From positions 1 through 64,000 of the forward strand of contig JAHLWP010000013.1 in assembly GCA_019057865.1 (NCBI GenBank): a DNA stretch of 64,000 nt. Direction: 5' to 3'. Of this stretch, positions 13,035 through 39,579 are shown piece after piece. The stretch's first letter is position 1. Each line of letters opens with the position of its first letter. The notes below the pieces were generated by a model. It saw nothing but the letters and a program-made list of their open reading frames with translations. It did not search any database and was not told the DNA's origin. The stretch comes from Promethearchaeota archaeon. GTDB taxonomy: Archaea; Asgardarchaeota; Lokiarchaeia; Sigyniarchaeales; SOKP01. A program made the translations under genes and the position numbers.

Positions 13035-14978
13035 ATGACATTAATCTTATCACTTCTTAAGACATACCTCATTTTCATAATTTTTTCTTTAATTATTTCT
13101 CTATTTGGAGGTATTTTTATTTATATTTTCCAAAAACATAGTAAGAAGAAATGGAATTTATCTTTACTTGAGTATGGTTTTATTTCTTACGCTGTGGGGT
13201 TATTATTATATATCTTGATCACATATATCCTTAGTTGGTTCAAGTTTTTTAATTTTTACACTGCTTTTTTGCCATTTTTAATAATTTCTTTAATATTTTT
13301 ATTATATTTGTTTAAAAAGAGGAATATTCGAGATGCTTTACCTCGAATTAGAAATTATTTAACTTTGAACTATAAAGAGATTGTTATAAACATCTTAATT
13401 TTAACAGTTATTTTTTTATTTCAATTTTTAACTCTTTGGCCGAAAATCTCAAAAACTTCAGCACTTTTATCCAGAGATTCTTATTATTGGACTAGACAAA
13501 TACTATATCTTAATGAAAATGGGATTGTGAATTATTCTGAGCATGGTTCTTTATATCCATGGGGTTTTATTTTGTTCTGTGGAGGAAATTTATTAATCTC
13601 AAATGATTTTACTACGATCTATTATTTTATGAAATTAGCTTGTTTTCCTTTTTTAAATTTCTATATTTTAGTTATGTTTTCAATTTCTAAGAGAATTTTT
13701 AAGAAAAAATTTTTAATTTTTTTTTGTTTGATTTCAATTTTGAGCCAAATGTTCTTTATGTATAGAACATTGATGTTTCTATCATCATCTATTGCTGTTT
13801 TGTTGATTTTAATTTCATTGATAATACTTTTAACTGAAACTCCAAATTATATTTTATGTTTTATTATACCTGCAACATTTTTATTCAATCCTGTATATGC
13901 TTTTTATTTTATTTTAGCATTATCAGTTTTTTATATTATAAAATTAATAAATTTGGATAGAAATAGGATTTTGATTTATAAAGAAATTATTACAATTATA
14001 TCATTATCGATAATTTTAGTTATTCCATATATAGTTAGTGCTTTCTTTTTTTATGGTAAAGATCTAATTAGTCTCATTGATTATTTTTGTCGCTTTTTCG
14101 AGATAAAAAATTTTAGCCATACTAATACTATAATTGAAATCCCGTCGAATTTTCAGTCAAAATTGTTTTTATTAAATTTATTTAACATTGAATTATATGA
14201 AATTCAATTTCTACTCTATATTGGATTCATTTTTCTTTTACCAATTTGGAGTTTCTTTTTAAAATTTAAAACTCAAGATGATAGACGTAAAGATTTTATT
14301 ATATTTTTAAAAATAGGATTTATTTTGACAATTTTAATCTTACTTACGCCTTTTTTTTTTAGTACGATTAGATTTTTTAAGATTTATTTTATAAGAATAT
14401 TTGAAGCATTTATTCCTTTTATGATACTTCTTTCAGGATTTTTTTTTGAACAAGTATTATCTAAATCTGAAAAATTATGGTATAATACTAAGCTTAAATT
14501 CAGAAAAGTTAAAAGTTGGACTGAAAAAAATAAATTCAATAAAAATGTATTGAATCTTCCTTCACTTTCAATAATTTTAATGCTTGTATTTTCTCTTTTT
14601 GCGTATAATTATTCCAGAATTCATACAGTTACTAATTATTATTATGATGACTCTTTAGTTAAATGTTGTTTTTATATTAATGAAAATATTGAAGAAAACA
14701 CAGATATAGCAGTTTACGATCTTAATGAATCATCTATCCATTCTAGTGCAATTTATTACTTATTATACCGTTATGATTTAATCTATTATCGATTTAATGG
14801 AAATGTAACCTTAAATGAATTTTGGGCGTTTCTACAAGCAAATACAATTGAAAATTTAATTATAAACTTGTCATATTACACTCAGGATTTCATTGATGAT
14901 TTTTCTTCTAATAGCTCTTTTAACACATTAGTAGGGGGATTAACAAACGGAGAATTCTCTTTATATCAGATATTATAG
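13035..14978 (+). CDS. Polytopic membrane protein, GT-C-like
   Basis: Multiple TM segments; SRDSYYW ... YPWGF loop motif; soluble C-terminal domain. Confidence 0.6.
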   Translation: MTLILSLLKTYLIFIIFSLIISLFGGIFIYIFQKHSKKKWNLSLLEYGFISYAVGLLLYILITYILSWFKFFNFYTAFLPFLIISLIFLLYLFKKRNIRDALPRIRNYLTLNYKEIVINILILTVIFLFQFLTLWPKISKTSALLSRDSYYWTRQILYLNENGIVNYSEHGSLYPWGFILFCGGNLLISNDFTTIYYFMKLACFPFLNFYILVMFSISKRIFKKKFLIFFCLISILSQMFFMYRTLMFLSSSIAVLLILISLIILLTETPNYILCFIIPATFLFNPVYAFYFILALSVFYIIKLINLDRNRILIYKEIITIISLSIILVIPYIVSAFFFYGKDLISLIDYFCRFFEIKNFSHTNTIIEIPSNFQSKLFLLNLFNIELYEIQFLLYIGFIFLLPIWSFFLKFKTQDDRRKDFIIFLKIGFILTILILLTPFFFSTIRFFKIYFIRIFEAFIPFMILLSGFFFEQVLSKSEKLWYNTKLKFRKVKSWTEKNKFNKNVLNLPSLSIILMLVFSLFAYNYSRIHTVTNYYYDDSLVKCCFYINENIEENTDIAVYDLNESSIHSSAIYYLLYRYDLIYYRFNGNVTLNEFWAFLQANTIENLIINLSYYTQDFIDDFSSNSSFNTLVGGLTNGEFSLYQIL

Positions 14979-27754: not shown

Positions 27755-29428
27755 TTATTTTCTTCTTGTAAATTTCTTTAAAACATTTAAAGTTTTAAGC
27801 ATAATTCTATTTAAAAATTTATCCTTACTTAACAAAGACTCAAAATATTCAAAATCAGTAGATTTTACAATTCCAAAAACTAAATTCATTAATATAAAGA
27901 GTACGATGAATGTTCCAATAGATAAAAAATCGAGATTTATAAAGAGTGATAACCCTAAATTATGTAAAATTGTAATGTTGATTTTTTTTAATATTAAATC
28001 CTCTAAAATTACCGTAATAACTAAAGGGATAAAAAATGTTAAATATTGCAATATAATCTTTTTAATATTTATTTTAATATTTCCGATTCTATAAATTGAG
28101 TATATTTGTATTATTAATGAGATTATATTTCCGATTATTAAACCTAAAATTATCGCACCTTCAACCCCACCATATGTTAAACCAATAAAAAACAATGGTA
28201 TAGAATACGTCATATAGAGTATATTTAATAGAAATGACGATTTTACTTTATTCTGGGCGTTTAAAAGCGATAGGACAAAGATTTTGAATATTTGAAAAAT
28301 TGACGCAAGAACAAATAATTTAAGAATATTTGAAAAAATTAAACGAGATTCGAGAAAAACAAAATCTAAGAAAAAGTCTACACTAAAAAATAGAATTCCA
28401 GATAAAATTAATAATAAGAATAATGTAATCCTATTCGCAATCTTAAAAATTTTGACAACATGGTAATAATCCTTTTTTGTACTCAAACTTGTAAAAGAAG
28501 TCATTAAAGGAAAATAAAAAGATCCTACTGACACTTGCCCGATATGACTGTAATTTAAGGCGATATTAAATCCAGTAACTGCTCCTGCTGATTCAAAAAA
28601 CCCAACTCCTTGTAGTTGTGCTTCTCTCCAACCCTTTGCAAAAAGATTAGAAAAAGTTGAATAACCACCATATTTCACACTTTTAAAAATATCTTTTTTA
28701 AATGGTTCTATCTCATTCCCTACCGGTTTAATTCTAATTACTTTTATCAAAACATATAAAAACTTTAAAATAAATGGAATTAAGGAAGAAATCATGACAA
28801 TCAAGGCTATAGTATCAATATTAATATTAATATCAAAAATATAGTAAATTAATAAAGGGCAAATATGAAAAGCATTTTTTATGAGCAATATTAGAAAAAG
28901 AAAATTAAATTTACTAAAACCTCTATTTATAGCATCTAAAAGAGAGCCTAAACTATTGAAAAAAATAGTTGGAGATAAGATAAATAAAATAGATACATTA
29001 TCTTCCAAATTAATTACAAATAAATCTTCAAAAATAGTGAAAAAAACGATGCTTATTATGAGAATAATTATTGTAAATAATGATTTTATAATTAGTGTAT
29101 TTTTAATTAATGCCTTGATTTTTTTTTTCTCATTTAAGGCAAGATATCTTGGAATATAATAATTTAAGGCATGATTCAGTCCTGGTGGTAATAAGGATAT
29201 AATAATACCAATAATTGTTATATATGAGGTTGCTAATATTAGAAAGTCCCAAGTTCTATCTAAAATTAATCGTGCTAAAAGAAAAGAATATATTAATGTG
29301 AAAAAAAAGGATCCATAATTTATTAAATAAGAGTAAAATGTATTTGTAGCTAATCTTTTGTACTCTTTATTATTTTTTAATTGATTATTTTCATGGTTAT
29401 TATTTACCATTATAAGAAAACATTTCAT
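27755..29428 (-). CDS. Oligosaccharide flippase (Wzx/MOP superfamily)
   Basis: N-terminal LATNTFYS..LLARL; about 12-14 TM segments; glycan-locus context. Confidence 0.8.
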   Translation of the reverse strand: MKCFLIMVNNNHENNQLKNNKEYKRLATNTFYSYLINYGSFFFTLIYSFLLARLILDRTWDFLILATSYITIIGIIISLLPPGLNHALNYYIPRYLALNEKKKIKALIKNTLIIKSLFTIIILIISIVFFTIFEDLFVINLEDNVSILFILSPTIFFNSLGSLLDAINRGFSKFNFLFLILLIKNAFHICPLLIYYIFDININIDTIALIVMISSLIPFILKFLYVLIKVIRIKPVGNEIEPFKKDIFKSVKYGGYSTFSNLFAKGWREAQLQGVGFFESAGAVTGFNIALNYSHIGQVSVGSFYFPLMTSFTSLSTKKDYYHVVKIFKIANRITLFLLLILSGILFFSVDFFLDFVFLESRLIFSNILKLFVLASIFQIFKIFVLSLLNAQNKVKSSFLLNILYMTYSIPLFFIGLTYGGVEGAIILGLIIGNIISLIIQIYSIYRIGNIKINIKKIILQYLTFFIPLVITVILEDLILKKINITILHNLGLSLFINLDFLSIGTFIVLFILMNLVFGIVKSTDFEYFESLLSKDKFLNRIMLKTLNVLKKFTRRK

Positions 29429-29739: not shown

Positions 29740-31245
29740 ATGAATATTTTCTGGATTGTGACCGATTCGATATGTAGCTATGAAAGATCTGATCTGCATA
29801 GTTTACTTCCAATCTACAAAAAATTAAAAAAAAATAAAGAAGGTTTCTTTTTTAAAAACGCATTATCTCAGTTCACATCAACAAGTTTATCTATTTTTTC
29901 ATTTTTAACAGGTAGATTTCCTTATTATATATTTCCTGATTATTACCCTTCAATCAAATTTCTTCCAAGTTATAAATATAAAAATAATATCAACCCATTG
30001 AAGAGAGAAAATTATAAAATTCAAGCAATTATGCACTCGAAAGAAGCAGTTGATGTTTTTAAGGATATTCTTAATCCATATTATGTGAATAATATGTATC
30101 ATGGAGATCATTTGTTAGATAGTAAAGAAGTTTACCATTTTTTAGCTGAAAAAATTAATGAACTCGATATAAATGAGAACAATTTCATATATGTACATTT
30201 CAGACCAACGGATCCTGAAACAAATTCATACATGAATAAAATAGTTTATTTATTAAAGGAGATGGGTTTTTGGGAAAAATCCATCATTATTATTAATTCT
30301 GATCATGGTTATTATGATAAGTCAATTTATAAAAAGATAAATTTAATACATTTTAATGATATTCACCAAACCTCATTATTATCGGCTTTATTTATAAAAT
30401 TACCCCCCAATTTAACATCTAAAATCCCAAGAACTATTAAAAAAAGAGTTTATTTAATGGATATTATGGAAACAATTCTTGATTATCTTAATATTAAAGC
30501 AGATCATGAGAGAGAATCAATTTCTTTTAAAGAATTAATAGAAAAAGATATAGATATTAATAAAAACAGAAAAATTAGAGGAGATTGTTATTTAATGTTT
30601 CAACCAATTAAAAAAACAGTGATAATCAAAGATAATTGGAAGCTTTTTAATAATAACGGAAAATTTACCTTGTATAATCTTAATGAAGATAATCTAGAAA
30701 AAAAAGATGTTAAAAAAAAATATCCTAAGATTTATACCGAACTATATCAATTTTATTTAGACACAGAATTGAAAGCTTATAAAATATTTAAATCAACCTT
30801 AAATACACTTTATAATCATAATAATTTAACTTTACTAGAATATGAGAATATTTTAGTTCCTCATCAATTTCCTCCACAACTAGCAAACTATTTAAAAGAA
30901 AATTTAAAGATAAAGAATAAAATAGTGAAACCATCTGAAATCGGTATCTCAAATTCAATCAAAAATCAAAGCTTGATTACAATTCTATTTTTTAATAGAT
31001 TAACTGGTTATAGATTAAAAAAACTGCAAAGAAAATATAGAAAATATACAAAAAAATTCATAATTTTAGATACAGCATTATCTGATGTATCAGATCAAAT
31101 AAATAATACTGGTTATATGAAATTTGTTATTAGATCATTAATTACCCGAAAAAAACAGTTGTTTCAAAGATGGAAAGAGATACTAATATGGACTTTATAT
31201 TTTCCACTTTATTTCAATAAATTTATGAAAAAATACTATAATTAA
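29740..31245 (+). CDS. Sulfatase/alkaline-phosphatase superfamily protein; candidate phosphonate transferase (track start 29659)
   Basis: NIFWIVTDS, SQFTSTSLSIFSFLTG, IIINSDHG, LYNL..D..E; GGTGT precedes ATG 29740. Confidence 0.7.
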   Translation: MNIFWIVTDSICSYERSDLHSLLPIYKKLKKNKEGFFFKNALSQFTSTSLSIFSFLTGRFPYYIFPDYYPSIKFLPSYKYKNNINPLKRENYKIQAIMHSKEAVDVFKDILNPYYVNNMYHGDHLLDSKEVYHFLAEKINELDINENNFIYVHFRPTDPETNSYMNKIVYLLKEMGFWEKSIIIINSDHGYYDKSIYKKINLIHFNDIHQTSLLSALFIKLPPNLTSKIPRTIKKRVYLMDIMETILDYLNIKADHERESISFKELIEKDIDINKNRKIRGDCYLMFQPIKKTVIIKDNWKLFNNNGKFTLYNLNEDNLEKKDVKKKYPKIYTELYQFYLDTELKAYKIFKSTLNTLYNHNNLTLLEYENILVPHQFPPQLANYLKENLKIKNKIVKPSEIGISNSIKNQSLITILFFNRLTGYRLKKLQRKYRKYTKKFIILDTALSDVSDQINNTGYMKFVIRSLITRKKQLFQRWKEILIWTLYFPLYFNKFMKKYYN

Positions 31246-31426
31246 TTTAATATTTTATTCAAGAGAATATGTTTAAGAATCTAAATTTTTAATGCCTTAA
31301 TCAAAATAATTTAAAGATTGAAAGAAGTAATCCTATTAAATCCCGTTGATATAAATTCAAATAAACCCATCATTAAGAAATCCATAAAAAATTTAATATT
31401 TAAAGCACTTATTTTTAATAGATCTT

Positions 31427-33118
31427 ATGAGCTTAAAAAATCGAATTTCACCTGAAGATAGAAGGAAATCCTTAAAAAATTTACTTAAAGAAAAAGATTT
31501 TATAAGAGCTATTGAAGCTCATAATGGTTTAAGTGCAATAATTGCTAATGATATTAAAGAAAAAGTAAGAAACGAAATTATTGAATTTGATGCCATTTGG
31601 GAAAGTAGTTTAACTGATAGTGCCACAAAGGGTTATCCAGATGCTGAAATAATAGGACCAGAATCTAGATATGAAACGATACGCCAAATTTTACATAGCT
31701 CTCATAAACCATTAATAGTAGATGGAGATACTGGCGGAGAAGCAACAAATTTTGAATATTTTGTGAAAAATTTGGAAGATTTTGGTGTTTCAATGGTAAT
31801 TATTGAAGATAAAAAATTTCCAAAAAGAAATAGTTTGGAAGCGGGGGCAATACAAATCCAAGAAGATCCAGATACTTTTTCGATAAAGATTAAAAGAGGT
31901 AAAAGTGTTTTATTATCGCAGGACTTTATGATAGCAGCTAGAATAGAAAGTCTTATTTCTGGAGCAGGAATAGAAGATGCCTTATTTAGAGCTAGAAAAT
32001 ATTTAATGGCTGGTGCTGATGCTATAATGATCCATTCAAAGGATTCAAAACCTAATGATATTTTTAAGTTTGCTGAAGAATATAATAAGTTAAGCTCTGA
32101 ATTAGGTTTTAGAAAGCCATTAATATGTGTTCCTACTACATATAATACCATTACGGAAGACGAATTAAAAGAACATGGCTTTAATATTGTGATATATGCA
32201 AATCATCTTTTACGATCATGTCATAAAGCTATGAAAGAAACAGCCTCTTTAATTTTGAGGAGTCAAAGATGTTTTGAGGCAGAACCTATGTGCAGTTCTG
32301 TTAATACTATTTTTAAAGATGTAGGTTTTCTTGAAGTAAAAGAAAAAGATATGAAATATTCTAAAGGAAAAACACGTGTAATCATACCCGCAGCAGGTAA
32401 AGAACCAATTTTCAAAATTCCTAAATCAATGATAAAAATCAATGGAAAACCAATTCTTCAAAGACAAATAGAAACTTTAAATAGCTGCGGTATTTATAAC
32501 ATTATTGTTGTTAGGGGATTTAAAAAAGAACTTATTGATATTCCAGGAGTCAAATATATTGATAATGAGAATTATGAAGATTATGGATTATTATATTCTT
32601 TATTTAGAGCAGAAAGTGAAATGGAAGGGGGATTTATCTATATAAATTCAGATATATTGTTTGATGGACATATCATAAATTCTCTTTTAGAATCTAAAAA
32701 GGATATTGTTTTGGTTGTTGATAATTCTTATGCTTACCATAAACATGAGATTGACAAAAGATTAGATCTAGTTATGACATTGAATAAGCCATCTGACCAA
32801 AGGAGATTATTATATTCTCGAGATAATGAAGTAATAAGAATTGGTAAGAATATAGATAAAAGTATGGCAGACTATGAATACATAGGGATTGCTTATTTTT
32901 CTGAATATGGTATTGATATAGTAAAAAAAATATTTCATGATTGTAGTTCTAATAATAAAGGATGTTTTCATGCTGTTTCTATTGAGAAAGCTACTTTTAA
33001 TGATTTTATTCAAGAAATAATTGATCGTGGTTTTAAGGTTCATAATCTAGAGATACATAAAGGATGGATAGAGATTCATAATAAAAAAGATCTTGAACTG
33101 GCTGAAAAGCTAATTTAA
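31427..33118 (+). CDS. pepM: Phosphoenolpyruvate mutase fused to a C-terminal nucleotidyltransferase domain
   Basis: EAHNGLSA, WESSLTDS, DGDTGG, diagnostic EDKKFPKRNS (EDKx5NS), ARIES, YANH; C-terminal IIPAAG..PK..NSDILFD..GWIEIH. Confidence 0.95.
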   Translation: MSLKNRISPEDRRKSLKNLLKEKDFIRAIEAHNGLSAIIANDIKEKVRNEIIEFDAIWESSLTDSATKGYPDAEIIGPESRYETIRQILHSSHKPLIVDGDTGGEATNFEYFVKNLEDFGVSMVIIEDKKFPKRNSLEAGAIQIQEDPDTFSIKIKRGKSVLLSQDFMIAARIESLISGAGIEDALFRARKYLMAGADAIMIHSKDSKPNDIFKFAEEYNKLSSELGFRKPLICVPTTYNTITEDELKEHGFNIVIYANHLLRSCHKAMKETASLILRSQRCFEAEPMCSSVNTIFKDVGFLEVKEKDMKYSKGKTRVIIPAAGKEPIFKIPKSMIKINGKPILQRQIETLNSCGIYNIIVVRGFKKELIDIPGVKYIDNENYEDYGLLYSLFRAESEMEGGFIYINSDILFDGHIINSLLESKKDIVLVVDNSYAYHKHEIDKRLDLVMTLNKPSDQRRLLYSRDNEVIRIGKNIDKSMADYEYIGIAYFSEYGIDIVKKIFHDCSSNNKGCFHAVSIEKATFNDFIQEIIDRGFKVHNLEIHKGWIEIHNKKDLELAEKLI

Positions 33119-33145
33119 CTATTTTTCGAAAAGTGGAATAATGAA

Positions 33146-34282
33146 ATGATTGAATTTATTGAAAATGGCTCTATTAAAAATCTTAAACGCATTTTAAAAG
33201 AAAATAACTTTAAAAATATTTTTTACATTACAGGTAATTCACCTTTAGAACAAGGTAATGTTGATAAAATCCAATTTATAATTGAGAATGAATGTAAATT
33301 TTTTCATTTTAATGATATTGCACCTACACCAACAGTTGAAGGTATTAAAAAGGCGCTAAATTTATTTAAGAAAGGTAATTATGATTTAATTTTAGCTATG
33401 GGAGGGGGGTCTGTTTTAGATATTGGTAAAAGTGTATCAATTTTTTCTACTAATAAAGGAGAAATTGAAGATTTTCTTTTAAAGAAACTAAAAATTAAAA
33501 GAAAAGGTACTCCATTAATATTAATTCCAACTACAGCAGGAACGGGTAGTGAAGCTACTCATTTCACCGTTATCTTTATCAAAAAAACAAAATATTCTTT
33601 AGCAGATCCTAAAATTTTACATGCGGATTATGCAATCGTAGACCCTGAATTAACATATAGTCTCCCTAAGAGAGTTACTGCTTATACAGGTATGGATGCA
33701 TTAAGTCAGGGAATAGAATCTTATTGGAATATCAATTCTACAGATGAATCAAAAGAATATGCAAAAAAAGCAATAGAGCTTGTTATGAATAATTTATTAA
33801 AAGCTGTTCATAATCCTAATGAAGAATCTAGATACAACATGGCACTTGCCGCTAATTATGCTGGAAAAGCTATAAATGTAACAAAAACAACAGCATGTCA
33901 TGCCATTTCGTATCCTATTACCTCATGTTTTAATGTACCTCATGGCCATGCAGTAGCTTTGACTTTACCTTCTATGATTGTCTTTAATTCGAGAGTTAAT
34001 GAAAATGATGTATTAGATACACGTGGAGTTGAATACGTAAAAAATATTATGAGTAAATTAGCCTCTATAATAGGTGTTTCTAGTTTTATTGAATCAAAAG
34101 AAAAAATCAAAAATTTAATGGTAGCTATTGAATTAGAAATAAAATTACAGGATTTGGGAATAAAATCTCAAGAAGATATTGAAATAATTATAAAAAATGG
34201 TTTTAATCTTGATAGAGTTAAAAATAATCCGAGATTATTAACAGAAACTCAATTAAGAAATATTTTAGAAGAAATAAGATGA
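33146..34282 (+). CDS. Iron-dependent alcohol dehydrogenase, phosphonoacetaldehyde reductase-like
   Basis: GGGSVLD, PTTAGTGSE, DALSQ, HAISY, HGHA; lies between pepM and ppd. Confidence 0.85.
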   Translation: MIEFIENGSIKNLKRILKENNFKNIFYITGNSPLEQGNVDKIQFIIENECKFFHFNDIAPTPTVEGIKKALNLFKKGNYDLILAMGGGSVLDIGKSVSIFSTNKGEIEDFLLKKLKIKRKGTPLILIPTTAGTGSEATHFTVIFIKKTKYSLADPKILHADYAIVDPELTYSLPKRVTAYTGMDALSQGIESYWNINSTDESKEYAKKAIELVMNNLLKAVHNPNEESRYNMALAANYAGKAINVTKTTACHAISYPITSCFNVPHGHAVALTLPSMIVFNSRVNENDVLDTRGVEYVKNIMSKLASIIGVSSFIESKEKIKNLMVAIELEIKLQDLGIKSQEDIEIIIKNGFNLDRVKNNPRLLTETQLRNILEEIR

Positions 34283-34995
34283 AAGTTATATTATTAAATG
34301 CGGGGATAGGTAAAAGGTTAGCCCCTTTAACCAACAATTTGCCAAAATGCCTTGTAAAAATAAGTAATAATGAAACAATTTTAGATCATCAATTAAAAAA
34401 TATTCTTAAGTATGGATTTAAAGATTTTATCATTCCAACAGGTCCGTTTGAGGAGAAAATTAAAACTCATATTATAGAACATTATCCTTCAATTAACGTT
34501 CAATATATTAATAATCCACTTCATGACAAAACAAATTACATATATTCCATATATTTAGTAAAAGACATGATTAATGATGATGTTTTATATTCTCATGGGG
34601 ATTTAATATTTTCTGGAAATTTAGTAAAATTATTACTTAAATCGAGTTATAAAAATTGTGTATTAGTTAATAAAGAAATTCCTCCTCCAGTAAAAGACTT
34701 TAAAGCAATTATATTAAATGATAGAATAAGTAAAATTGGAGTTAATTTGTTCGGACAGAATGCTGCATTCTTAGCCCCGTTATACAAACTCACTAAGGAA
34801 TTTATGTTAAGTTGGCTTAATCAAATAGAGAAATTTATAAATGATAACAAAGTAAATTATTATGCTGAAGATGCTTTAAATGAAATTCTGGATACTCTTG
34901 TTCTAAAACCTTGTTATTATAATGAATTCTGTGTCGAAATTGATGATTATGAAGATTTAGAAGGAGTAAAAAATTATTTTAATAATAATAAGTAA
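34279..34995 (+). CDS. LicC/PntC-like (phosphonate) cytidylyltransferase
   Basis: LLNAGIGKRL..PKCL, TNYIYS, HGDL, EIDDYEDL; ATGA overlap with the upstream gene. Confidence 0.85.
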   Translation: MKVILLNAGIGKRLAPLTNNLPKCLVKISNNETILDHQLKNILKYGFKDFIIPTGPFEEKIKTHIIEHYPSINVQYINNPLHDKTNYIYSIYLVKDMINDDVLYSHGDLIFSGNLVKLLLKSSYKNCVLVNKEIPPPVKDFKAIILNDRISKIGVNLFGQNAAFLAPLYKLTKEFMLSWLNQIEKFINDNKVNYYAEDALNEILDTLVLKPCYYNEFCVEIDDYEDLEGVKNYFNNNK

Positions 34996-35018
34996 AATAG
35001 TAGTTAATATAGGATAAA

Positions 35019-36155
35019 ATGATTTCTTGCGAAAAATTTTTTGAAATTCTAAAAATTAATAATTTTACATTCTTTACAGGAATTCCAGACTCAACTTTTA
35101 AAGATTTTATGAAATTCTTAGCTGATAATGATAGTAAAGATCTAAGAAATATTGTTGCATGTAATGAATGCGAAGCTATTGCATTAGCATCTGGTTATCA
35201 TTTAGCAACTAATAAAATAGGAATTGTATATATGCAGAATTCTGGACTTGGTAAGGCTGTTAATCCTCTTACATCCTTATGTGATCCTGATGTATATTCC
35301 ATTCCAATTCTTTTAATGATAGGATGGCGTGGTGAACCTGGAAAAATTGATGCTCCTCAACATAAAAAAATGGGAAAGATTACATTACCATTATTGGACA
35401 CACTCCAAATACCTTATATCGTATTGGAACCAGATTTAAGTGTAGTTAAAAAAGAACTTATTAAAGCATTAAATTATTTCAATGAAATTAAAGGACCATA
35501 TGCTTTTGTTTTTCGAAGAGGTTTCTTTAAAGAGCATAAAGTGAAATTTAAGCAATTAAATAACTATAGTCTAACCATAGAAGAAGTAATTCAATTGATT
35601 ATGGATAATTTGAACAACGATGAAATCATTGTTTCAACTACAGGTTATATTACACGAGAGCTATATGAATATAGAGAATCAAGAAATAAAGATCATCATA
35701 AAAGTTTTTATAATATTGGTTCTATGGGGTGTGCCAGCTCGATAGGATTAAGTATAGCGCTACACAAACCAAAAAATAGAGTTATAGTATTTGATGGAGA
35801 TGGCGCAGCTATTATGCAAATGGGTTCTTTTACAACAATAGGAAAAAATTCACCTTCTAACTTTGTCCATATTATTTTAGATAATGAAGCTCATGAATCT
35901 ACTGGTGGTCAACCAACTAATTCATCTAATGTTGACTTTGTAAATATTGCGCTCGCATCAAATTATAAATGGGGTGTTCGAGTTGAAAACATCGAAGATT
36001 TATTAAAATCGATTGATAAAATTAAAAACCGAAAAGGCCCAATCTTAGTATTAATAAAAATCAAAATCTATTCTAGATCAGAATTAAAAAGACCAAGTAA
36101 AAGTCCAAAAGAGTATAAAGAAGGATTTATGAGATATTTAAATGATTTAGATTAA
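35019..36155 (+). CDS. aepY: Phosphonopyruvate decarboxylase
   Basis: FTGIPDS, NECEA, YMQNSGLG.AVNPL, GWRGEPG..DAPQH, GSMG, DGDGA, HESTGGQ. Confidence 0.93.
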   Translation: MISCEKFFEILKINNFTFFTGIPDSTFKDFMKFLADNDSKDLRNIVACNECEAIALASGYHLATNKIGIVYMQNSGLGKAVNPLTSLCDPDVYSIPILLMIGWRGEPGKIDAPQHKKMGKITLPLLDTLQIPYIVLEPDLSVVKKELIKALNYFNEIKGPYAFVFRRGFFKEHKVKFKQLNNYSLTIEEVIQLIMDNLNNDEIIVSTTGYITRELYEYRESRNKDHHKSFYNIGSMGCASSIGLSIALHKPKNRVIVFDGDGAAIMQMGSFTTIGKNSPSNFVHIILDNEAHESTGGQPTNSSNVDFVNIALASNYKWGVRVENIEDLLKSIDKIKNRKGPILVLIKIKIYSRSELKRPSKSPKEYKEGFMRYLNDLD

Positions 36156-36301: not shown

Positions 36302-37294
36302 ATGACCTTACCCAGATCAAGTGACTTTTGGAAAAGTAGACGCATTTTAATAACTGGAGCTGCTGGTTTTATAGGAAGTAATTTAACAGATAAATTATTA
36401 GAAATTGGAGCAGAAGTAATTGGTTTAGATAATCTATTTAACGGTAGGATTGAAAATTTAGAAGAAGCTTTGAAAAATAAAAAATTTCAATTTCATAAGG
36501 GAGATATAAGAGATATAAACTTTTTATTAGATATTTTAAAAGATATTGATATTATATTTCATAAAGCAGCATTCACTAGTGTCCCTCAATCAGTAAAAAT
36601 GCCAGAATCTTGCAATGATGTCAATGTAAATGGCACTTTAAATTTATTAAACGCTGCTAGAAAAAAAGATGTAGAAAAAATTATCTTTGCTTCAAGTTCT
36701 TCTGTATATGGTGATACACCTACCTTACCAAAGAAAGAAGATATGCCAAGATTACCAATCTCTCCCTATGGAGTATCAAAGTTAGCGTGTGAGGCATATA
36801 TGCAGGCATTTCACCAGGTTTATGGATTAAAAACAATTTCATTAAGATATTTCAACGTTTTTGGTCCAAGGCAAAAAGATTCTCCATATAGTGGTGTTAT
36901 CGCAATTTGGTTAGGAAGAATCATTAATAATGAAGATTTGATAATATTTGGTGATGGCGAACAATCAAGAGATTTTACATACATTAAAGATGTGGTCCAA
37001 GCAAATTTAATGGCCGCTGAACATGATGTTTCAGGAGAGATCTTAAATGTAGGCGCTGGTTCTCCAATAACTTTAAACGATCTTGCAAAATTAATTCTAA
37101 ATATTACAAATAAAAAGAATTTAAAACTAATTTACACTGATCCTAGACCAGGTGATATTTTACACAGTTACGCTGATATTTCTAAAGCCAAAAGAATAAT
37201 TGGATTTCAACCGGAATATGATCAGGAACAAGGCTTAAGAGATTATTTTATATGGTATTGTAAAAAGTATAACGTTAATTTAAAAATTAACTAA
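36302..37294 (+). CDS. NAD-dependent epimerase (WbpP/GalE-like)
   Basis: TGAAGFIG, SVPQS, YGVSK, YFNVFGPRQ, GDGEQSRDF. Confidence 0.9.
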   Translation: MTLPRSSDFWKSRRILITGAAGFIGSNLTDKLLEIGAEVIGLDNLFNGRIENLEEALKNKKFQFHKGDIRDINFLLDILKDIDIIFHKAAFTSVPQSVKMPESCNDVNVNGTLNLLNAARKKDVEKIIFASSSSVYGDTPTLPKKEDMPRLPISPYGVSKLACEAYMQAFHQVYGLKTISLRYFNVFGPRQKDSPYSGVIAIWLGRIINNEDLIIFGDGEQSRDFTYIKDVVQANLMAAEHDVSGEILNVGAGSPITLNDLAKLILNITNKKNLKLIYTDPRPGDILHSYADISKAKRIIGFQPEYDQEQGLRDYFIWYCKKYNVNLKIN

Positions 37295-37299
37295 GAAAT

Positions 37300-39579
37300 A
37301 TGAATAGGCTTAGATTGAATCAAATACTTTTTAAGGTCAAATCCAGAAAGAATTTATTTATTTTCATTCTTTCTTTAATATCTTTAGGAATTATCCTTCT
37401 TAAGTTAGTTAATATTGATGAAATTATTGGAATATCGGATATGTTCCTGTTGGGTTTCATTTATCAAATAGCAATTGCTTTTAGTACAATTTTTACCATA
37501 CTATTCTTACCTACTTATCCCATTTTTTTTATTTTTTTTAAAGAAAAATCTTTTAATTTTTTAGAGAAACTGAGTTTGACTATTATTATTAATTCAGTTT
37601 TCTATATCTTTACAGGATATATTGGTTATTGGTTTGGAGTTCCTTTAACCGGGACTTTTTTCTTTTGTGCAATAATTATTTTATTCTTTCCAATAATATT
37701 TTATATTATTTACTCTGAATTTAAAAATGGGCCATATAAATTTCTTAGAAGTGAAATATCGTCAATACAAAGTGATCGAAATTTAATTAATTTTTCTTTA
37801 TTTAACTACTTTAAAAAGCTAATTTCTGTTAATGCCCTTTTATTGATAGTTTTTATATTCTTAATCTGCATCTCATATATTGTTAAAGTTAGCTATTTTG
37901 GAGGGACAGATCCATGGCTCCATGTTCTTAATAGTAGAATAATAACTGACATTAATTATTTACCTTTAGAAGGATATCATGGAACTATGGGTTTAAATAT
38001 ATTTGGAGCTGTGATTTATTTTTTTTCGGGAATAAATCATTTGCTAATTCCAAGATATTTTGTTTTTTATACATTTTTTGTATCCGCCTTAATATTTTAT
38101 AATATTCTCATGAGAATCTTCAGAAATAGAAACTTAGCAATTTTTGGTGTATTTATATTAGAATTCTCTTCATTAGGTTTTTCTACTATGATGCTTCAAT
38201 ATTGGCCATCCGGCTCAGCTCTGATCAAATGCCTAGCAATTTTCTTTCTTCTATATGTAAGATTGCAGGATTTTATTCAACCCGAACGACCCTCTAAAAA
38301 CCTTATTTTAAAAGATATATTTTTATTTTACATTCTAATAATCTTAATTTTTATTAGTGCTGTTCTTACGCATGTTGTTACATCTATGGTTTTATTAATT
38401 TCCTTTTTATGGTTATATTTTGTATATTTTATAAAAGATTATAGACGGGGAGTTGATTTTATATTTCTATGTGGATTAATTGGTATATTTTTAATTTTAA
38501 ACTTATTTGGTATAGGCTCTGGTCATTATTGGTTTTTTATTCCATTTGATTTTCCAATTCAGCTACTTATTTTAGGCGCAATCATGGGAGGAATAATAGG
38601 AATATTTTTTTTATGGAGGGTACAAAAATCAATTATTTTCACAAAAGGAAGGTATAAATTAATAATAACAGGGAAAAGAAGTAGATATTATAAGAAAATA
38701 GAAGACAAAATAATAATTCCACTAATATTTAGTATAACTATCTCGTTTACTCTTCTTTTTTTAATAGCAAACCTCTTTTGGTTTAATTTTCATATAGTGA
38801 ATATCTTTTATGTTGCTGAAATCCTAATTATTAGTTCTTTTGCAATCTGGGGTTTTGTATTATATCAAAAAAAACCAAAAGGAAAGCCATTGTTTTTATG
38901 GTCTATAGGTCTTTTGGTTCTTTTAGCCGCGGGTTTTATTTTTAATATCTTATTTTTAAGCAATATGATTTGGCAGAGAATTTTATATTTAATTCCTCCT
39001 GCTATTGTGATTGGATTTGTGTCATATATTTATAAACTAATTAAGATTGGTTCCATAAGAGCAATAAAATTGAAAATATTAATTTTATTTTTAGTATCCT
39101 TTTCATTATTTTCCACTTGTTTTTATGATTCTATTGCGTTTGAAGTTTTCAATTTAAAGAGAAGAGATGTATCTAATATCAGATGGTACTCTCGTTATAC
39201 TTCTAATAGAAATGTAATTATTTCAGAATTCGGTTGGAGTTATATTTTTAAATATTATGATTATCCATTTGACAATAGAAGTGAAGCTCTTCTTTATAAT
39301 GAAACAGATTATTTCTTGAAATATGATATTGATTTATTTCCCCCAGAAAACCATTTTGATGAAAATGGAACAAATATTTTACAAGAAATAAAGAGAGAGT
39401 ATAACACGGATGTTTATATAATATTTGATGGGGTTTATATAATTAATAAAGATTTTGAGTTGTTTGGGCAGTTGACGGAGGAAGAAGAAGAAATATATTA
39501 TACTCTGGATTATTTAAATAAGATTTGTTCTTCAATGACTGAGAATGGAGAGGAAACACCTACATTTTGGGTTATTTAA
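37300..39579 (+). CDS. Polytopic membrane protein, GT-C-like
   Basis: Many TM segments; GGTDPWLH loop motif; soluble C-terminal domain. Confidence 0.6.
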   Translation: MNRLRLNQILFKVKSRKNLFIFILSLISLGIILLKLVNIDEIIGISDMFLLGFIYQIAIAFSTIFTILFLPTYPIFFIFFKEKSFNFLEKLSLTIIINSVFYIFTGYIGYWFGVPLTGTFFFCAIIILFFPIIFYIIYSEFKNGPYKFLRSEISSIQSDRNLINFSLFNYFKKLISVNALLLIVFIFLICISYIVKVSYFGGTDPWLHVLNSRIITDINYLPLEGYHGTMGLNIFGAVIYFFSGINHLLIPRYFVFYTFFVSALIFYNILMRIFRNRNLAIFGVFILEFSSLGFSTMMLQYWPSGSALIKCLAIFFLLYVRLQDFIQPERPSKNLILKDIFLFYILIILIFISAVLTHVVTSMVLLISFLWLYFVYFIKDYRRGVDFIFLCGLIGIFLILNLFGIGSGHYWFFIPFDFPIQLLILGAIMGGIIGIFFLWRVQKSIIFTKGRYKLIITGKRSRYYKKIEDKIIIPLIFSITISFTLLFLIANLFWFNFHIVNIFYVAEILIISSFAIWGFVLYQKKPKGKPLFLWSIGLLVLLAAGFIFNILFLSNMIWQRILYLIPPAIVIGFVSYIYKLIKIGSIRAIKLKILILFLVSFSLFSTCFYDSIAFEVFNLKRRDVSNIRWYSRYTSNRNVIISEFGWSYIFKYYDYPFDNRSEALLYNETDYFLKYDIDLFPPENHFDENGTNILQEIKREYNTDVYIIFDGVYIINKDFELFGQLTEEEEEIYYTLDYLNKICSSMTENGEETPTFWVI

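What the first reader, a model, noticed from the sequence alone, without database searches (positions are those of the whole stretch)
29740..36155. Phosphonate (2-hydroxyethylphosphonate) biosynthesis cassette embedded in an Asgard surface-glycan locus
Seen: co-oriented PEP mutase (EDKx5NS motif) fused to a nucleotidyltransferase, an Fe-ADH, a LicC-like cytidylyltransferase and phosphonopyruvate decarboxylase, flanked by a flippase, GTs and an epimerase. Known: PepM, Ppd and an Fe-ADH convert PEP to phosphonopyruvate, phosphonoacetaldehyde and then 2-HEP, and PntC-type enzymes make CMP-phosphonates for glycan or lipid tailoring. No AEP transaminase or MpnS/HEPD cupin is visible in this window. 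Inference: this archaeon decorates surface glycans with C-P-bonded 2-HEP. Archaeal phosphonate synthesis is best known from Nitrosopumilus, and I am not aware of it being characterised in Asgard archaea.
Basis: partly seen in the sequence, partly recalled or inferred. Interest (0 to 1): 0.8.

Follow-up and report, generated by a model that had tools for sequence, protein, structure and literature searches.

The report
Hydroxyethylphosphonate cassette in a Lokiarchaeial glycan island
An uncultured Asgard (Lokiarchaeial) archaeon carries an intact four-gene operon of a known type that should make the carbon-phosphorus compound 2-hydroxyethylphosphonate, activate it with CMP and probably attach it to cell-surface sugars. 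The chemistry is known, but it has apparently not been remarked on in Asgard archaea, and related cassettes sit in both cultured strains.

Summary
Window 31427-36155 holds a tight operon:
- PepM (EDKKFPKRNS motif, above the NCBIfam equivalog cut-off) fused to a LicC-like domain
- Fe-ADH
- a canonical LicC/PntC-type nucleotidyltransferase (NT2)
- phosphonopyruvate decarboxylase

The operon lies in a roughly 40-kb glycan island.

The 2-HEP reading is well supported:
- No PhnW reaches its cut-off anywhere in the genome.
- The ADH family is recurrently adjacent to Ppd.
- That family includes natural Ppd-ADH and cytidylyltransferase-ADH fusions.

The organism is Lokiarchaeial, in the same order as Lokiarchaeum ossiferum. 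The contig is not chimeric: the same locus recurs in at least 8 independent MAGs.

PepM occurs in 42 of 400 Asgard genomes sampled and 17 of 54 in this genus. P. syntrophicum MK-D1 and L. ossiferum carry the Fom1-type version. This scan had already flagged MK-D1. No paper in the held library discusses it.

The least ordinary part is the upstream gene (29740-31245). It is a soluble, Asgard-restricted sulfatase-fold protein with Thr at the nucleophile position. It is present in all 17 PepM-positive congeners, and the genome has no LicD. It is a candidate phosphonyl transferase, but this is unproven.

Verdict: a new member of a known kind, of moderate interest.

The parts
27755..29428 (-). Multi-pass membrane protein, probably a Wzx/MOP-type flippase. 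It is transcribed divergently from the cassette.
   Evidence: PF01943 Polysacc_synt 21 bits, below the cut-off of 28.2. About 12-14 hydrophobic segments. 54-60% identical orthologues lie at the same locus in congeners.
29740..31245 (+). sulfT: a soluble sulfatase/alkaline-phosphatase-fold protein with Thr at the nucleophile position. It is a candidate phosphonyl (HEP) transferase or phosphodiesterase.
   Evidence: PF00884 30.8 bits. No TM segment or signal peptide. The family is restricted to Asgard MAGs: 57 close homologues, after which E-values drop to about 1e-5. D9, S47, S51 and S187-D188-H189-G190 are invariant and T48 is at least 90% conserved; there is no C/S-x-P-x-R motif. The AF2 model has pLDDT 85, and the top Foldseek hits are S1 sulfatases, PMH and YejM. 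It is present in 17 of 17 PepM-positive congeners.
31427..33118 (+). PEP mutase (residues about 1-300) fused to a divergent LicC-like nucleotidyltransferase domain (about 315-563).
   Evidence: TIGR02320 330.9 bits, above the cut-off of 319.55. EDKKFPKRNS motif. PF12804 37 bits. The best PDB hits of the C-terminal domain are LicC 1JYK and Tde-PntC 6PD1. The domain lacks the G-x-G-x-R signature and has E-I-H in place of E-I-D.
33146..34282 (+). Group III iron alcohol dehydrogenase, a predicted phosphonoacetaldehyde reductase that makes 2-HEP.
   Evidence: PF00465 and PF25137. Homologues at 38-52% identity sit next to Ppd in many phyla. Representatives of its family include three Ppd-ADH fusions and one cytidylyltransferase-ADH fusion.
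34279..34995 (+). NT2: a canonical LicC/PntC-type nucleotidyltransferase, a predicted CTP:HEP cytidylyltransferase.
   Evidence: PF00483 50 bits. The best PDB hits are LicC 1JYK (2.2e-11) and Tde-PntC 6PD1. The AG-x-G-x-RL...PLT...PK signature and the E-I-D motif are intact. There is a 4-bp overlap with the ADH gene. It co-occurs with the ADH in both PepM architectures.
35019..36155 (+). Phosphonopyruvate decarboxylase (TPP-dependent).
   Evidence: TIGR03297 437.2 bits against a cut-off of 312.5. PF02775 and PF02776.
36302..37294 (+). NAD-dependent sugar-nucleotide epimerase/dehydratase. It belongs to the glycan context and is present in only some versions of the locus.
   Evidence: PF01370 226.9 bits. 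The best NCBIfam hit is TviC-like, below its cut-off. It is absent between Ppd and orf759 in G004, G019 and G222.
37300..39579 (+). orf759: a conserved multi-pass membrane protein that anchors the variable island. It may be a DUF2206/GT-C-like glycan enzyme.
   Evidence: No Pfam, NCBIfam or PDB sequence hit. About 15 or more hydrophobic segments. Atlas feature neighbours include DUF2206 and DUF6541 clusters. It is present at this position in congeners with and without PepM.

Best explanation
The operon PepM-NT / Fe-ADH / NT2 / Ppd is a de novo 2-hydroxyethylphosphonate (HEP) 'phosphonyl tailoring' cassette.

Proposed steps:
1. PepM isomerises PEP to phosphonopyruvate.
2. Ppd decarboxylates it irreversibly to phosphonoacetaldehyde.
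3. The Fe-ADH reduces that to 2-HEP.
4. A LicC/PntC-type nucleotidyltransferase condenses HEP with CTP to give CMP-HEP. NT2 is the most likely enzyme, because it keeps the canonical signature. The PepM-fused domain is a conserved divergent subtype of unknown substrate.
5. In the cytoplasm, the HEP group is transferred from CMP-HEP to a hydroxyl of a lipid-linked glycan. That glycan is built by the surrounding glycosyltransferases and then flipped outward.

The upstream soluble sulfatase-fold protein with a Thr nucleophile (sulfT) is my preferred candidate for the transfer step, at about 40%. It would work through a covalent HEP-Thr intermediate. An unlinked TagF-like enzyme on contig C66 is the alternative.

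What is shown by sequence evidence: the identities of PepM and Ppd, the HEP-type ADH family, the canonical state of NT2, and the glycan-island context.

What is inferred: CMP as the activating group, the acceptor, and the transferase.
For: - PepM passes its NCBIfam equivalog cut-off and carries EDKx5NS. Ppd also passes its cut-off.
- The operon is tight, with gaps of 27, -4 and 23 bp.
- The ADH family is tied to Ppd. It is adjacent in dozens of loci across archaea and bacteria. Three Ppd-ADH fusions and one CyTase-ADH fusion are among its nearest 60 cluster representatives.
- No PhnW is found anywhere in a 99.7%-complete genome.
- NT2's best PDB relatives are LicC and the AEP cytidylyltransferase Tde-PntC, and its catalytic signature is intact.
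- Fom1's CyTase is known to make CMP-HEP, and PepM-PF12804 fusions are the commonest Ppm architecture (PMC6697681).
- HEP-glycan conjugates are known from Stackebrandtia (PMC8942020).
- The context holds at least 12 GTs, epimerases, a methyltransferase and a flippase-like gene.
- For sulfT: the genome has no LicD. sulfT is in 17 of 17 PepM-positive congeners. In genus g22 a TagF-like transferase lies next to PepM-NT, where sulfT lies in this genus. Thr-type sulfatase-fold genes also lie by HEP cassettes in a Nanoarchaeota MAG and two bacterial MAGs.
Against: - There is no biochemical or expression evidence.
- The ADH scores below the only phosphonate-named NCBIfam ADH model: TIGR03405, 190 bits against a cut-off of 424.
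- Two LicC-like domains are present and their division of labour is unknown.
- The fused domain lacks the canonical Arg and Asp.
- sulfT also occurs in 5 congeners without PepM. In two loci it sits beside a sulfotransferase.
- Congeners are not independent samples.
- Sulfatase-fold transferases known so far (LtaS, EptA) are membrane-anchored, act outside the cytoplasm and use lipid donors, not nucleotide donors (my own knowledge).
- MpnS/HEPD-type tailoring enzymes were not searched for.
Confidence: 0.7

Rival explanations
1. The cassette makes a phosphonolipid, not a phosphonoglycan. CMP-HEP would be condensed with an archaeol-type lipid alcohol by a CDP-alcohol phosphatidyltransferase-family enzyme, giving an HEP head group.
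For: Congeners with the larger version of the locus carry a PF01066 CDP-alcohol phosphatidyltransferase two genes upstream of sulfT. The genome holds seven PF01066 genes elsewhere. Burkholderiales phosphonolipid clusters use this logic (PMC8942020).
Against: The window's own locus lacks the PF01066 gene. The cassette lies between a flippase-like gene, glycosyltransferases and an epimerase.
Confidence: 0.12
2. The product is a free, possibly exported small-molecule phosphonate. Cytidylylation would be a transient handle, as in fosfomycin biosynthesis, and sulfT would act as an NPP/FomD-like phosphodiesterase that releases HEP or a derivative from CMP.
For: Thr-nucleophile alkaline-phosphatase-fold enzymes include nucleotide phosphodiesterases (my own knowledge). 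Structural neighbours of sulfT carry PF01663 Phosphodiest, and phosphonate monoester hydrolases rank among the PDB hits. Most congeners and L. ossiferum have an MFS transporter next to the cassette.
Against: The window's version has no MFS gene and no tailoring enzyme such as a radical SAM, oxygenase or ligase. The glycan-island position is conserved. Free HEP has no known bioactivity (my own knowledge).
Confidence: 0.1
3. The end product is 2-aminoethylphosphonate or another non-HEP phosphonate. Phosphonoacetaldehyde would be transaminated by an unlinked class-V aminotransferase, and the ADH would serve another role.
For: A class-V aminotransferase on contig C69 scores 162 bits to the PhnW/AepZ model. 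Other Asgard genera have a true AEP-type cluster with PepM-NT, Ppd, NT, aminotransferase and a TagF-like gene (L141).
Against: The C69 hit is far below the cut-off of 360.8, and all 14 control genomes give similar sub-threshold hits. The ADH overlaps NT2 and belongs to a Ppd-fused family. In AEP-type Asgard clusters the aminotransferase replaces the ADH in the operon.
Confidence: 0.06
4. The genes are not functional in this organism. They would be a recently acquired, decaying or mis-binned segment.
For: The distribution is patchy: 17 of 54 genomes in the genus. The MAG has 5% estimated contamination.
Against: All frames are intact. GC content (0.25-0.28) matches the rest of the window. The same gene order sits between the same Asgard-specific neighbours (orf759, orf262, roadblock, longin-GTPase) in at least 8 MAGs from different studies. 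The Asgard PepM-NT sequences form one well-supported clade.
Confidence: 0.02

Closest known systems
Phosphonyl tailoring (Pnt) clusters of bacteria: Ppm fused to a PF12804 nucleotidyltransferase, with PntC cytidylyltransferases (Rice et al. 2019, PMC6697681)
   Same: The PepM-PF12804 fusion is the commonest Ppm architecture there (33% of Ppm). A LicC-like stand-alone nucleotidyltransferase lies in the cluster. The cluster sits in a cell-surface glycan context. The best PDB relatives of both NT domains are LicC 1JYK and Tde-PntC 6PD1.
   Different: The characterised PntCs act on AEP, whereas here the branch enzyme is an ADH (HEP) and no AEP transaminase is present. The genome has no LicD. The host is archaeal. 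The fused NT domain has a non-canonical signature.
Early fosfomycin steps in Streptomyces: Fom1 (CyTase-PepM), Fom2 (Ppd), FomC (Fe-ADH), giving CMP-HEP
   Same: The same chemistry from PEP to HEP and then to CMP-HEP is predicted. The Fom1-type architecture (N-terminal PF01467 CyTase-PepM with Ppd, ADH and NT2) is the version found in P. syntrophicum MK-D1, L. ossiferum and other Asgard families.
   Different: The window has the other architecture, with a C-terminal PF12804 domain, and its PepM falls in a separate clade. There is no Fom3, Fom4 or FomD, so no antibiotic pathway.
HEP phosphonoglycan of Stackebrandtia nassauensis / Glycomyces, and the Nitrosopumilus maritimus methylphosphonate cluster (as summarised in PMC8942020)
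   Same: PepM-Ppd-PhpC-type ADH clusters whose product is esterified to an exopolysaccharide. The Nitrosopumilus case is archaeal.
   Different: N. maritimus goes on from HEP to methylphosphonate with the O2-dependent MpnS, and no such enzyme is seen in this operon. The transferase candidates differ.
Thr-nucleophile alkaline-phosphatase-superfamily transferases and hydrolases: LtaS, EptA/MCR-1, NPP, and phosphonate monoester hydrolase (PDB 2VQR, 4UPK)
   Same: sulfT has the sulfatase/AP fold. A Thr occupies the nucleophile position, and the Asp and Asp-His metal-ligand positions are conserved.
   Different: sulfT has no TM anchor or signal peptide, so it is cytoplasmic. It has an extra C-terminal helical/alpha-beta domain of about 170 aa. 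Sequence similarity to any solved protein is marginal (E 0.015-0.17). PMHs use formylglycine, which sulfT cannot form.

Membership tests
PEP mutase (TIGR02320 / PF13714 with the Ppm motif) | EDKx5NS active-site motif | tested here: met
   EDKKFPKRNS is read in the translation. The motif is present in all 33 Asgard PepM loci examined.
PEP mutase (TIGR02320 / PF13714 with the Ppm motif) | Score above the NCBIfam equivalog cut-off and above sister families (PPH, methylisocitrate lyase, CPEP mutase) | tested here: met
   330.9 bits against a cut-off of 319.55. TIGR02321 scores 149, TIGR02317 95 and TIGR02319 34 bits, all far below their own cut-offs.
PEP mutase (TIGR02320 / PF13714 with the Ppm motif) | PEP to phosphonopyruvate mutase activity | not testable with these tools
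   Needs an enzyme assay coupled to Ppd.
Phosphonopyruvate decarboxylase (TIGR03297) | Full-length match above the equivalog cut-off, with N- and C-terminal TPP domains | tested here: met
   437.2 bits against a cut-off of 312.5, covering profile positions 1-360 of 360. PF02776 and PF02775 are both present.
PhpC/FomC/Pdh-type phosphonoacetaldehyde reductase | Group III Fe-ADH encoded next to Ppd/PepM, with conserved association | tested here: met
   Adjacent to Ppd or PepM in Asgard, DPANN, Methanosarcinales, Thermoplasmata, CPR and other bacterial loci at 38-80% identity. Three Ppd-ADH fusions and one CyTase-ADH fusion belong to the same family.
PhpC/FomC/Pdh-type phosphonoacetaldehyde reductase | Membership of a curated phosphonate ADH model (TIGR03405, PsrA) | tested here: not met
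   189.7 bits against a cut-off of 423.7. That model describes a different subfamily, so this does not bear on HEP formation.
LicC/PntC-type cytidylyltransferase (NT2) | N-terminal G-x-G-x-R-L...P-K signature and C-terminal E-I-D metal motif | tested here: met
   NAGIGKRLAPLTNNLPK and VEIDDYEDL are seen in the alignment. The best PDB hits are LicC (2.2e-11) and Tde-PntC (3.6e-6).
LicC/PntC-type cytidylyltransferase (domain fused to PepM) | N-terminal G-x-G-x-R-L...P-K signature and C-terminal E-I-D metal motif | tested here: not met
   The domain reads AAGKEPIF-----KIPK, with a 5-residue gap and no Arg, and WIEIH in place of EID. Both changes are conserved across the whole clade of C-terminal fusions, archaeal and bacterial. 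The fold family still matches.
LicC/PntC-type cytidylyltransferase | CTP-dependent activation of HEP | not testable with these tools
   Needs an HPLC or NMR assay with CTP and HEP.
Formylglycine sulfatase (S1) | C/S-x-P-x-R formylglycine motif | tested here: not met
   The aligned segment reads S-T-x-L-S-[IL], nine residues before T-G-R. T48 lies at the Cys position and there is no Pro or Arg. sulfT is therefore not filed as a sulfatase.
Thr-type alkaline-phosphatase-superfamily phosphotransferase (LtaS/EptA-like) | Sulfatase/AP fold with a Thr nucleophile and Asp / Asp-His metal ligands | tested here: met
   AF2 model with pLDDT 85 and Foldseek probability 1.0 to sulfatases, PMH and YejM. D9 and D188-H189 are invariant; T48 is at least 90% conserved. 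The N-terminal strand that carries D9 is modelled with low confidence.
Thr-type alkaline-phosphatase-superfamily phosphotransferase (LtaS/EptA-like) | N-terminal membrane anchor and extracytoplasmic catalytic domain | tested here: not met
   No hydrophobic segment and no signal peptide; the fold starts at residue 3.
Lic/Pnt pathway | LicD-family phospho(no)transferase | tested here: not met
   PF04991 has no match in the whole 99.7%-complete genome, while the control genome Lactococcus lactis is detected.

The most novel reading that the evidence does not exclude
sulfT founds a new class of cytoplasmic, nucleotide-donor-dependent phosphonyl transferases built on the sulfatase/alkaline-phosphatase fold. 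On this reading Thr48 attacks CMP-HEP, or the product of NT3 in relatives. That forms a covalent HEP-enzyme intermediate, which is passed to a lipid-linked glycan. sulfT would then be a non-orthologous replacement for the LicD and TagF-like transferases. The locus would switch between de novo synthesis (PepM cassette), a scavenging mode (MFS + NT3 + sulfT without PepM) and no phosphonate at all, among closely related Lokiarchaeia.
Probability: 0.3. Interest if true: 0.65.

Novelty: new member of a known kind. Interest (0 to 1): 0.42.

Why it matters
Phosphonates are a large and poorly sourced pool of marine and sediment organic phosphorus, and the cell-surface chemistry of Asgard archaea is almost unknown.

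This work shows three things:
- True PepM is in about a tenth of sampled Asgard genomes and about a third of this genus.
- It comes in two architectures.
- HEP-type cassettes are in both cultured Lokiarchaeia.

That makes a concrete prediction which can be tested now in culture by 31P-NMR: C-P-bonded decoration of the Asgard cell envelope.

The locus also varies between strains. Forms seen include de novo synthesis, a possible salvage form, and none. This suggests selection on surface phosphorus chemistry, from viruses, syntrophic partners or P economy.

The Asgard-specific Thr-type sulfatase-fold protein is a tractable candidate for the still poorly defined phosphonyl-transfer step.

The core pathway itself is textbook phosphonate biochemistry.

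Tried and rejected
- PhnW/AEP route: TIGR03301 and TIGR02326 searches of the own genome gave only sub-threshold class-V aminotransferases.
- LicD as transferase: no PF04991 in the genome.
- orf379 or orf293 as hidden TagF-like or CDP-alcohol transferases: no Pfam hit at E 0.1 and no BLAST similarity to the TagF-like or PF01066 proteins of related loci. The C-terminus of orf379 looks like a GT-B glycosyltransferase.
- orf759 as AglB/STT3: no Pfam, NCBIfam or PDB sequence hit. Only feature-level resemblance to DUF2206/DUF6541 clusters.
- Fused NT domain as a dead pseudo-enzyme: rejected as stated. Its unusual residues are conserved across the whole fusion clade, and many bacterial members (Nitrospinota) have no other NT within 10 kb.
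- TagF-like gene on C66 as the dedicated partner: it is enriched in PepM-positive congeners (8 of 17, against 3 of 37) but missing from 9 PepM-positive genomes. It stays an alternative only.
- Sequence search of sulfT against the PDB gave only marginal hits. The Atlas structural search added nothing beyond the sulfatase/phosphodiesterase fold.
- The Metcalf 2012 paper (PMC3466329) is not held. My recollection that the N. maritimus cluster contains sulfatase genes is therefore unverified and is not used as evidence.
- MpnS/HEPD: not searched, because I had no model accession.

Full report
**Observation.**
- 31427-33118 encodes a 563-aa protein. Residues 16-297 match PEP mutase: PF13714 at E 1.3e-49, and TIGR02320 at 330.9 bits, above the equivalog cut-off of 319.55.
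- Sister families score far lower (phosphonopyruvate hydrolase 149 bits, methylisocitrate lyase 95 bits).
- The diagnostic motif reads EDKKFPKRNS.
- Residues about 319-436 match the MobA-like NTP-transferase family PF12804.
- Then follow a group III Fe-ADH (33146-34282), a 238-aa nucleotidyltransferase NT2 (34279-34995, overlapping the ADH by 4 bp) and phosphonopyruvate decarboxylase (35019-36155; TIGR03297 437 bits against 312.5).
- The gaps inside this operon are 27, -4 and 23 bp.
- The start of the finding, 29740, is the true start of a sixth gene not mentioned in the text. It is a 501-aa sulfatase-fold protein (29740-31245). I call it sulfT.

**Context.** The stretch from about 2.6 to 39.6 kb is a glycan-biosynthesis island. 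It holds:
- at least 12 GT2/GT4-type glycosyltransferases;
- three NAD-dependent epimerase/dehydratases;
- a methyltransferase and a NosD-like beta-helix protein;
- a multi-TM flippase-like protein (27755-29428, a weak Pfam hit);
- three large multi-pass membrane proteins without family assignment, including orf759 (37300-39579).

GC content is uniform at 0.23-0.32 and shows no step at the cassette.

**Organism and integrity of the contig.** The window is the first 64 kb of a 90-kb contig of a 4.26-Mb MAG, 99.7% complete with 5% contamination.
- The closest homologues of PepM-NT and sulfT are from MAGs labelled Promethearchaeota, Lokiarchaeota or Hermodarchaeota.
- Two 'same order' handles are cultured strains. 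G171 is Ca. Lokiarchaeum ossiferum B-35 and G038 is Promethearchaeum syntrophicum MK-D1, by exact protein look-up.
- In at least 8 congeners the cassette lies at the same chromosomal site, next to orf759, a conserved 262-aa archaeal protein, a roadblock protein and a longin-type GTPase.

A chimeric contig is therefore excluded.

**Why HEP.**
1. No AEP transaminase was found. The best genome-wide hit to the PhnW models is a class-V aminotransferase on another contig, at 162 bits against a cut-off of 361. All control genomes give comparable sub-threshold hits.
2. The ADH is not a stray neighbour. In 80 PepM loci from named genomes, homologues at 38-80% identity lie beside Ppd. These include Asgard, Nanoarchaeota, Pacearchaeota, Methanosarcinales, Thermoplasmata, Falkowbacteria and others. 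NT2 homologues often lie there as well.
3. An exhaustive search of 1.84 billion cluster representatives was run with the ADH. Among the nearest 60 are three proteins of 735-747 aa whose N-terminal halves are bona fide Ppd (TIGR03297, 415-491 bits). A fourth has a cytidylyltransferase N-terminus. They are 42-53% identical to the window's ADH.
4. These natural fusions tie the family to the product of Ppd (phosphonoacetaldehyde) and to cytidylylation of its own product.
5. This matches the known PhpC/FomC reaction, and Fom1's CyTase making CMP-HEP (PMC8942020, PMC6697681).

**The two nucleotidyltransferases.**
- Both NT2 and the fused domain have LicC (1JYK) and the AEP cytidylyltransferase Tde-PntC (6PD1) as best solved relatives.
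- An alignment shows NT2 keeps the canonical AG-x-G-x-RL...PLT...PK signature and the E-I-D motif. So does a third paralogue, NT3, found in relatives.
- The fused domain reads AAGKEPIF-----KIPK and W-I-E-I-H.
- These changes are conserved through the whole clade of C-terminal fusions, bacterial members included. Some of those have no other NT nearby.
- The fused domain is therefore a conserved divergent subtype and not a wreck.
- I assign HEP activation to NT2 as the more likely enzyme and leave the fused domain's substrate open.

**The transfer step.** The genome has no LicD.

What sulfT looks like:
- It has no TM segment or signal peptide.
- Its family is confined to Asgard MAGs: 57 close homologues, then a fall to E of about 1e-5.
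- Alignment of 27 members shows invariant D9, S47, S51 and S187-D188-H189-G190, and a nearly invariant T48.
- T48 lies exactly where sulfatases have the formylglycine Cys, nine residues before T-G-R. There is no C/S-x-P-x-R motif.
- The AF2 model (pLDDT 85, pTM 0.87) matches S1 sulfatases best. Phosphonate monoester hydrolases and YejM rank further down.
- It is therefore not a sulfatase. It is a Thr-type alkaline-phosphatase-superfamily enzyme located in the cytoplasm, where CMP-HEP would be.

Comparative evidence for a link to the cassette:
- All 17 PepM-positive genomes of the genus have sulfT.
- In genus g22 the same PepM-NT/ADH/NT2/Ppd operon lacks sulfT and has a TagF-like PF04464 transferase directly upstream of PepM-NT. 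In g21 an AEP-type cluster also carries a TagF-like gene.
- Thr-type sulfatase-fold genes also lie by PepM in a Nanoarchaeota MAG, two genes upstream of CyTase-PepM/Ppd/ADH/NT2, and in two bacterial MAGs.
- Sulfatase genes in phosphonate neighbourhoods have been noted before, in Selenomonas (PMC8942020).

Evidence against:
- Five congeners have sulfT without PepM.
- In two loci a sulfotransferase sits beside it.
- The own genome has an unlinked TagF-like gene (C66:30172-31407) at the edge of a second glycan cluster. It is 53% identical to the PepM-adjacent one of g22.
- Within the genus, that TagF-like gene is in 8 of 17 PepM-positive and 3 of 37 PepM-negative genomes.

I put sulfT as the HEP transferase at roughly 40%.

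**Locus polymorphism.** At the same site, between the flippase and orf759, congeners show five states:
1. sulfT plus the four-gene cassette (this window, G012, G222).
2. The same plus NT3 and an MFS transporter between sulfT and PepM-NT (G001, G004, G018, G019, G024).
3. sulfT, NT3 and MFS without any PepM, Ppd or ADH (G002, G016, G214).
4. sulfT alone (G226).
5. None of these (G003, G005, G208).

L. ossiferum has NT3-MFS divergently adjacent to its Fom1-type cassette, so NT3-MFS is linked to phosphonate genes in two families. State 3 could be a scavenging route for exogenous phosph(on)ates. That is speculation.

**Distribution and evolution.**
- TIGR02320 is passed in 42 of 400 sampled genomes of the phylum and 17 of 54 of the genus.
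- All 33 Asgard PepM loci examined carry EDKx5NS.
- Two architectures occur. PepM with C-terminal PF12804 is seen mainly in family f1. The Fom1-like form, with N-terminal PF01467 CyTase, is seen in f2, f13, f16 and others.
- In a quick maximum-likelihood tree of the PepM domain (SH-aLRT only), the Asgard C-terminal-fusion sequences form one clade (99).
- That clade lies inside a well-supported clade of such fusions, which mixes Thermoplasmata, Methanosarcinales, Bathyarchaeia, Woesearchaeota, Nitrospinota, Dehalococcoidia, Planctomycetota and others.
- CyTase-PepM forms make up a separate clade that includes a Heimdallarchaeota sequence.
- Asgard archaea therefore hold at least two PepM lineages. 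The direction of transfer cannot be read from an unrooted tree.

**Literature and prior notes.**
- Full-text searches combining phosphonate or PepM terms with Asgard, Lokiarchaeota or Promethearchaeota names found no paper that treats the subject.
- A cold-seep BGC survey says that six archaeal phyla, not named in the text I read, encode phosphonate BGCs (PMC11051675).
- The MK-D1 isolation and description papers do not contain the string 'phosphon'.
- GenBank already labels the MK-D1 genes PepM and Ppd. The L. ossiferum PepM is labelled 2-methylisocitrate lyase in one record.
- This scan had already reported the MK-D1 cassette, and several DPANN and CPR versions, as new members of a known kind. 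My independent identification agrees.

**Verdict.** This is a real, intact and very probably functional HEP-type phosphonyl-tailoring cassette in a Lokiarchaeial surface-glycan island. It is a new member of a known kind. The points worth following are the Asgard-specific Thr-type sulfatase-fold partner, the unresolved role of the divergent fused NT domain, and the strain-level switching of the locus. A direct test is available in the two cultured Lokiarchaeia.

Noticed in passing
L021, L023, L024, L025 (G004, G018, G019, G024) and L132, L136, L137 (G002, G016, G214): Congeners carry an extra LicC-like nucleotidyltransferase (NT3, about 307 aa, canonical signature) and an MFS transporter between sulfT and PepM-NT. 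In three genomes sulfT-NT3-MFS stands alone, with no PepM, Ppd or ADH. This could be a salvage route for an external phosph(on)ate.
   Followed up: partly
L142 (G171 = Ca. Lokiarchaeum ossiferum B-35, 4923000-4943000) and L027 (G038 = Promethearchaeum syntrophicum MK-D1): Both cultured Lokiarchaeia carry CyTase-PepM, Ppd, Fe-ADH and NT2. L. ossiferum also has NT3 and MFS divergently adjacent. The L. ossiferum PepM is labelled '2-methylisocitrate lyase' in GenBank UYP47934.1 although it carries EDKVGPKRNS.
   Followed up: yes
window 32369-33118 (the NT domain of PepM-NT) and L052-L080: The PepM-fused NT domain lacks the G-x-G-x-R signature and has E-I-H where LicC-type enzymes have E-I-D. Both changes are conserved across archaeal and bacterial C-terminal fusions, so this common fusion domain may not be an ordinary cytidylyltransferase.
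   Followed up: partly
G000 contig C66:30172-31407 (L152:9173-10408, - strand): A TagF-like PF04464 transferase sits at the edge of a second glycan gene cluster (GT2, GT2, FkbM methyltransferase, GT4, GDP-mannose-dehydratase-like), with no linked CDP-glycerol synthesis gene in the 19 kb examined. It is 53% identical to the TagF-like gene next to PepM-NT in genus g22.
   Followed up: partly
L025:4493-5311, L132:11933-12745, L137:3211-4026, L136:10320-11207, L023:15474-16280: A small membrane protein of the CDP-alcohol phosphatidyltransferase family (PF01066, 23-29 bits) lies two genes upstream of sulfT in congeners that have NT3-MFS. The window lacks it.
   Followed up: no
L138:11053-11967 (G226) and L139:7126-8034 (G222): A PF00685 sulfotransferase lies directly beside sulfT in two congeners. 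This does not fit neatly with a purely phosphonate-related role for sulfT.
   Followed up: no
L141 (G198:C10, 9233-16659): Another Asgard genus has an AEP-type cluster: PepM-NT, Ppd, a canonical NT, a class-V aminotransferase, a TagF-like transferase and a SPASM radical-SAM enzyme.
   Followed up: partly
L087:7861-8985 (Nanoarchaeota MAG H14-bin056_1): A 374-aa sulfatase-fold protein with Thr at the nucleophile position and an SDHG motif lies two genes upstream of CyTase-PepM/Ppd/ADH/NT2. It is an independent second association of this fold with an HEP cassette.
   Followed up: partly
window 37300-39579 (orf759), 13035-14978 and 3851-6316: Three large multi-pass membrane proteins have no Pfam assignment. 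orf759 is conserved next to orf262, roadblock and the GTPase in all congeners examined, and it marks the fixed edge of the variable glycan island. Feature search points weakly to DUF2206/DUF6541.
   Followed up: partly
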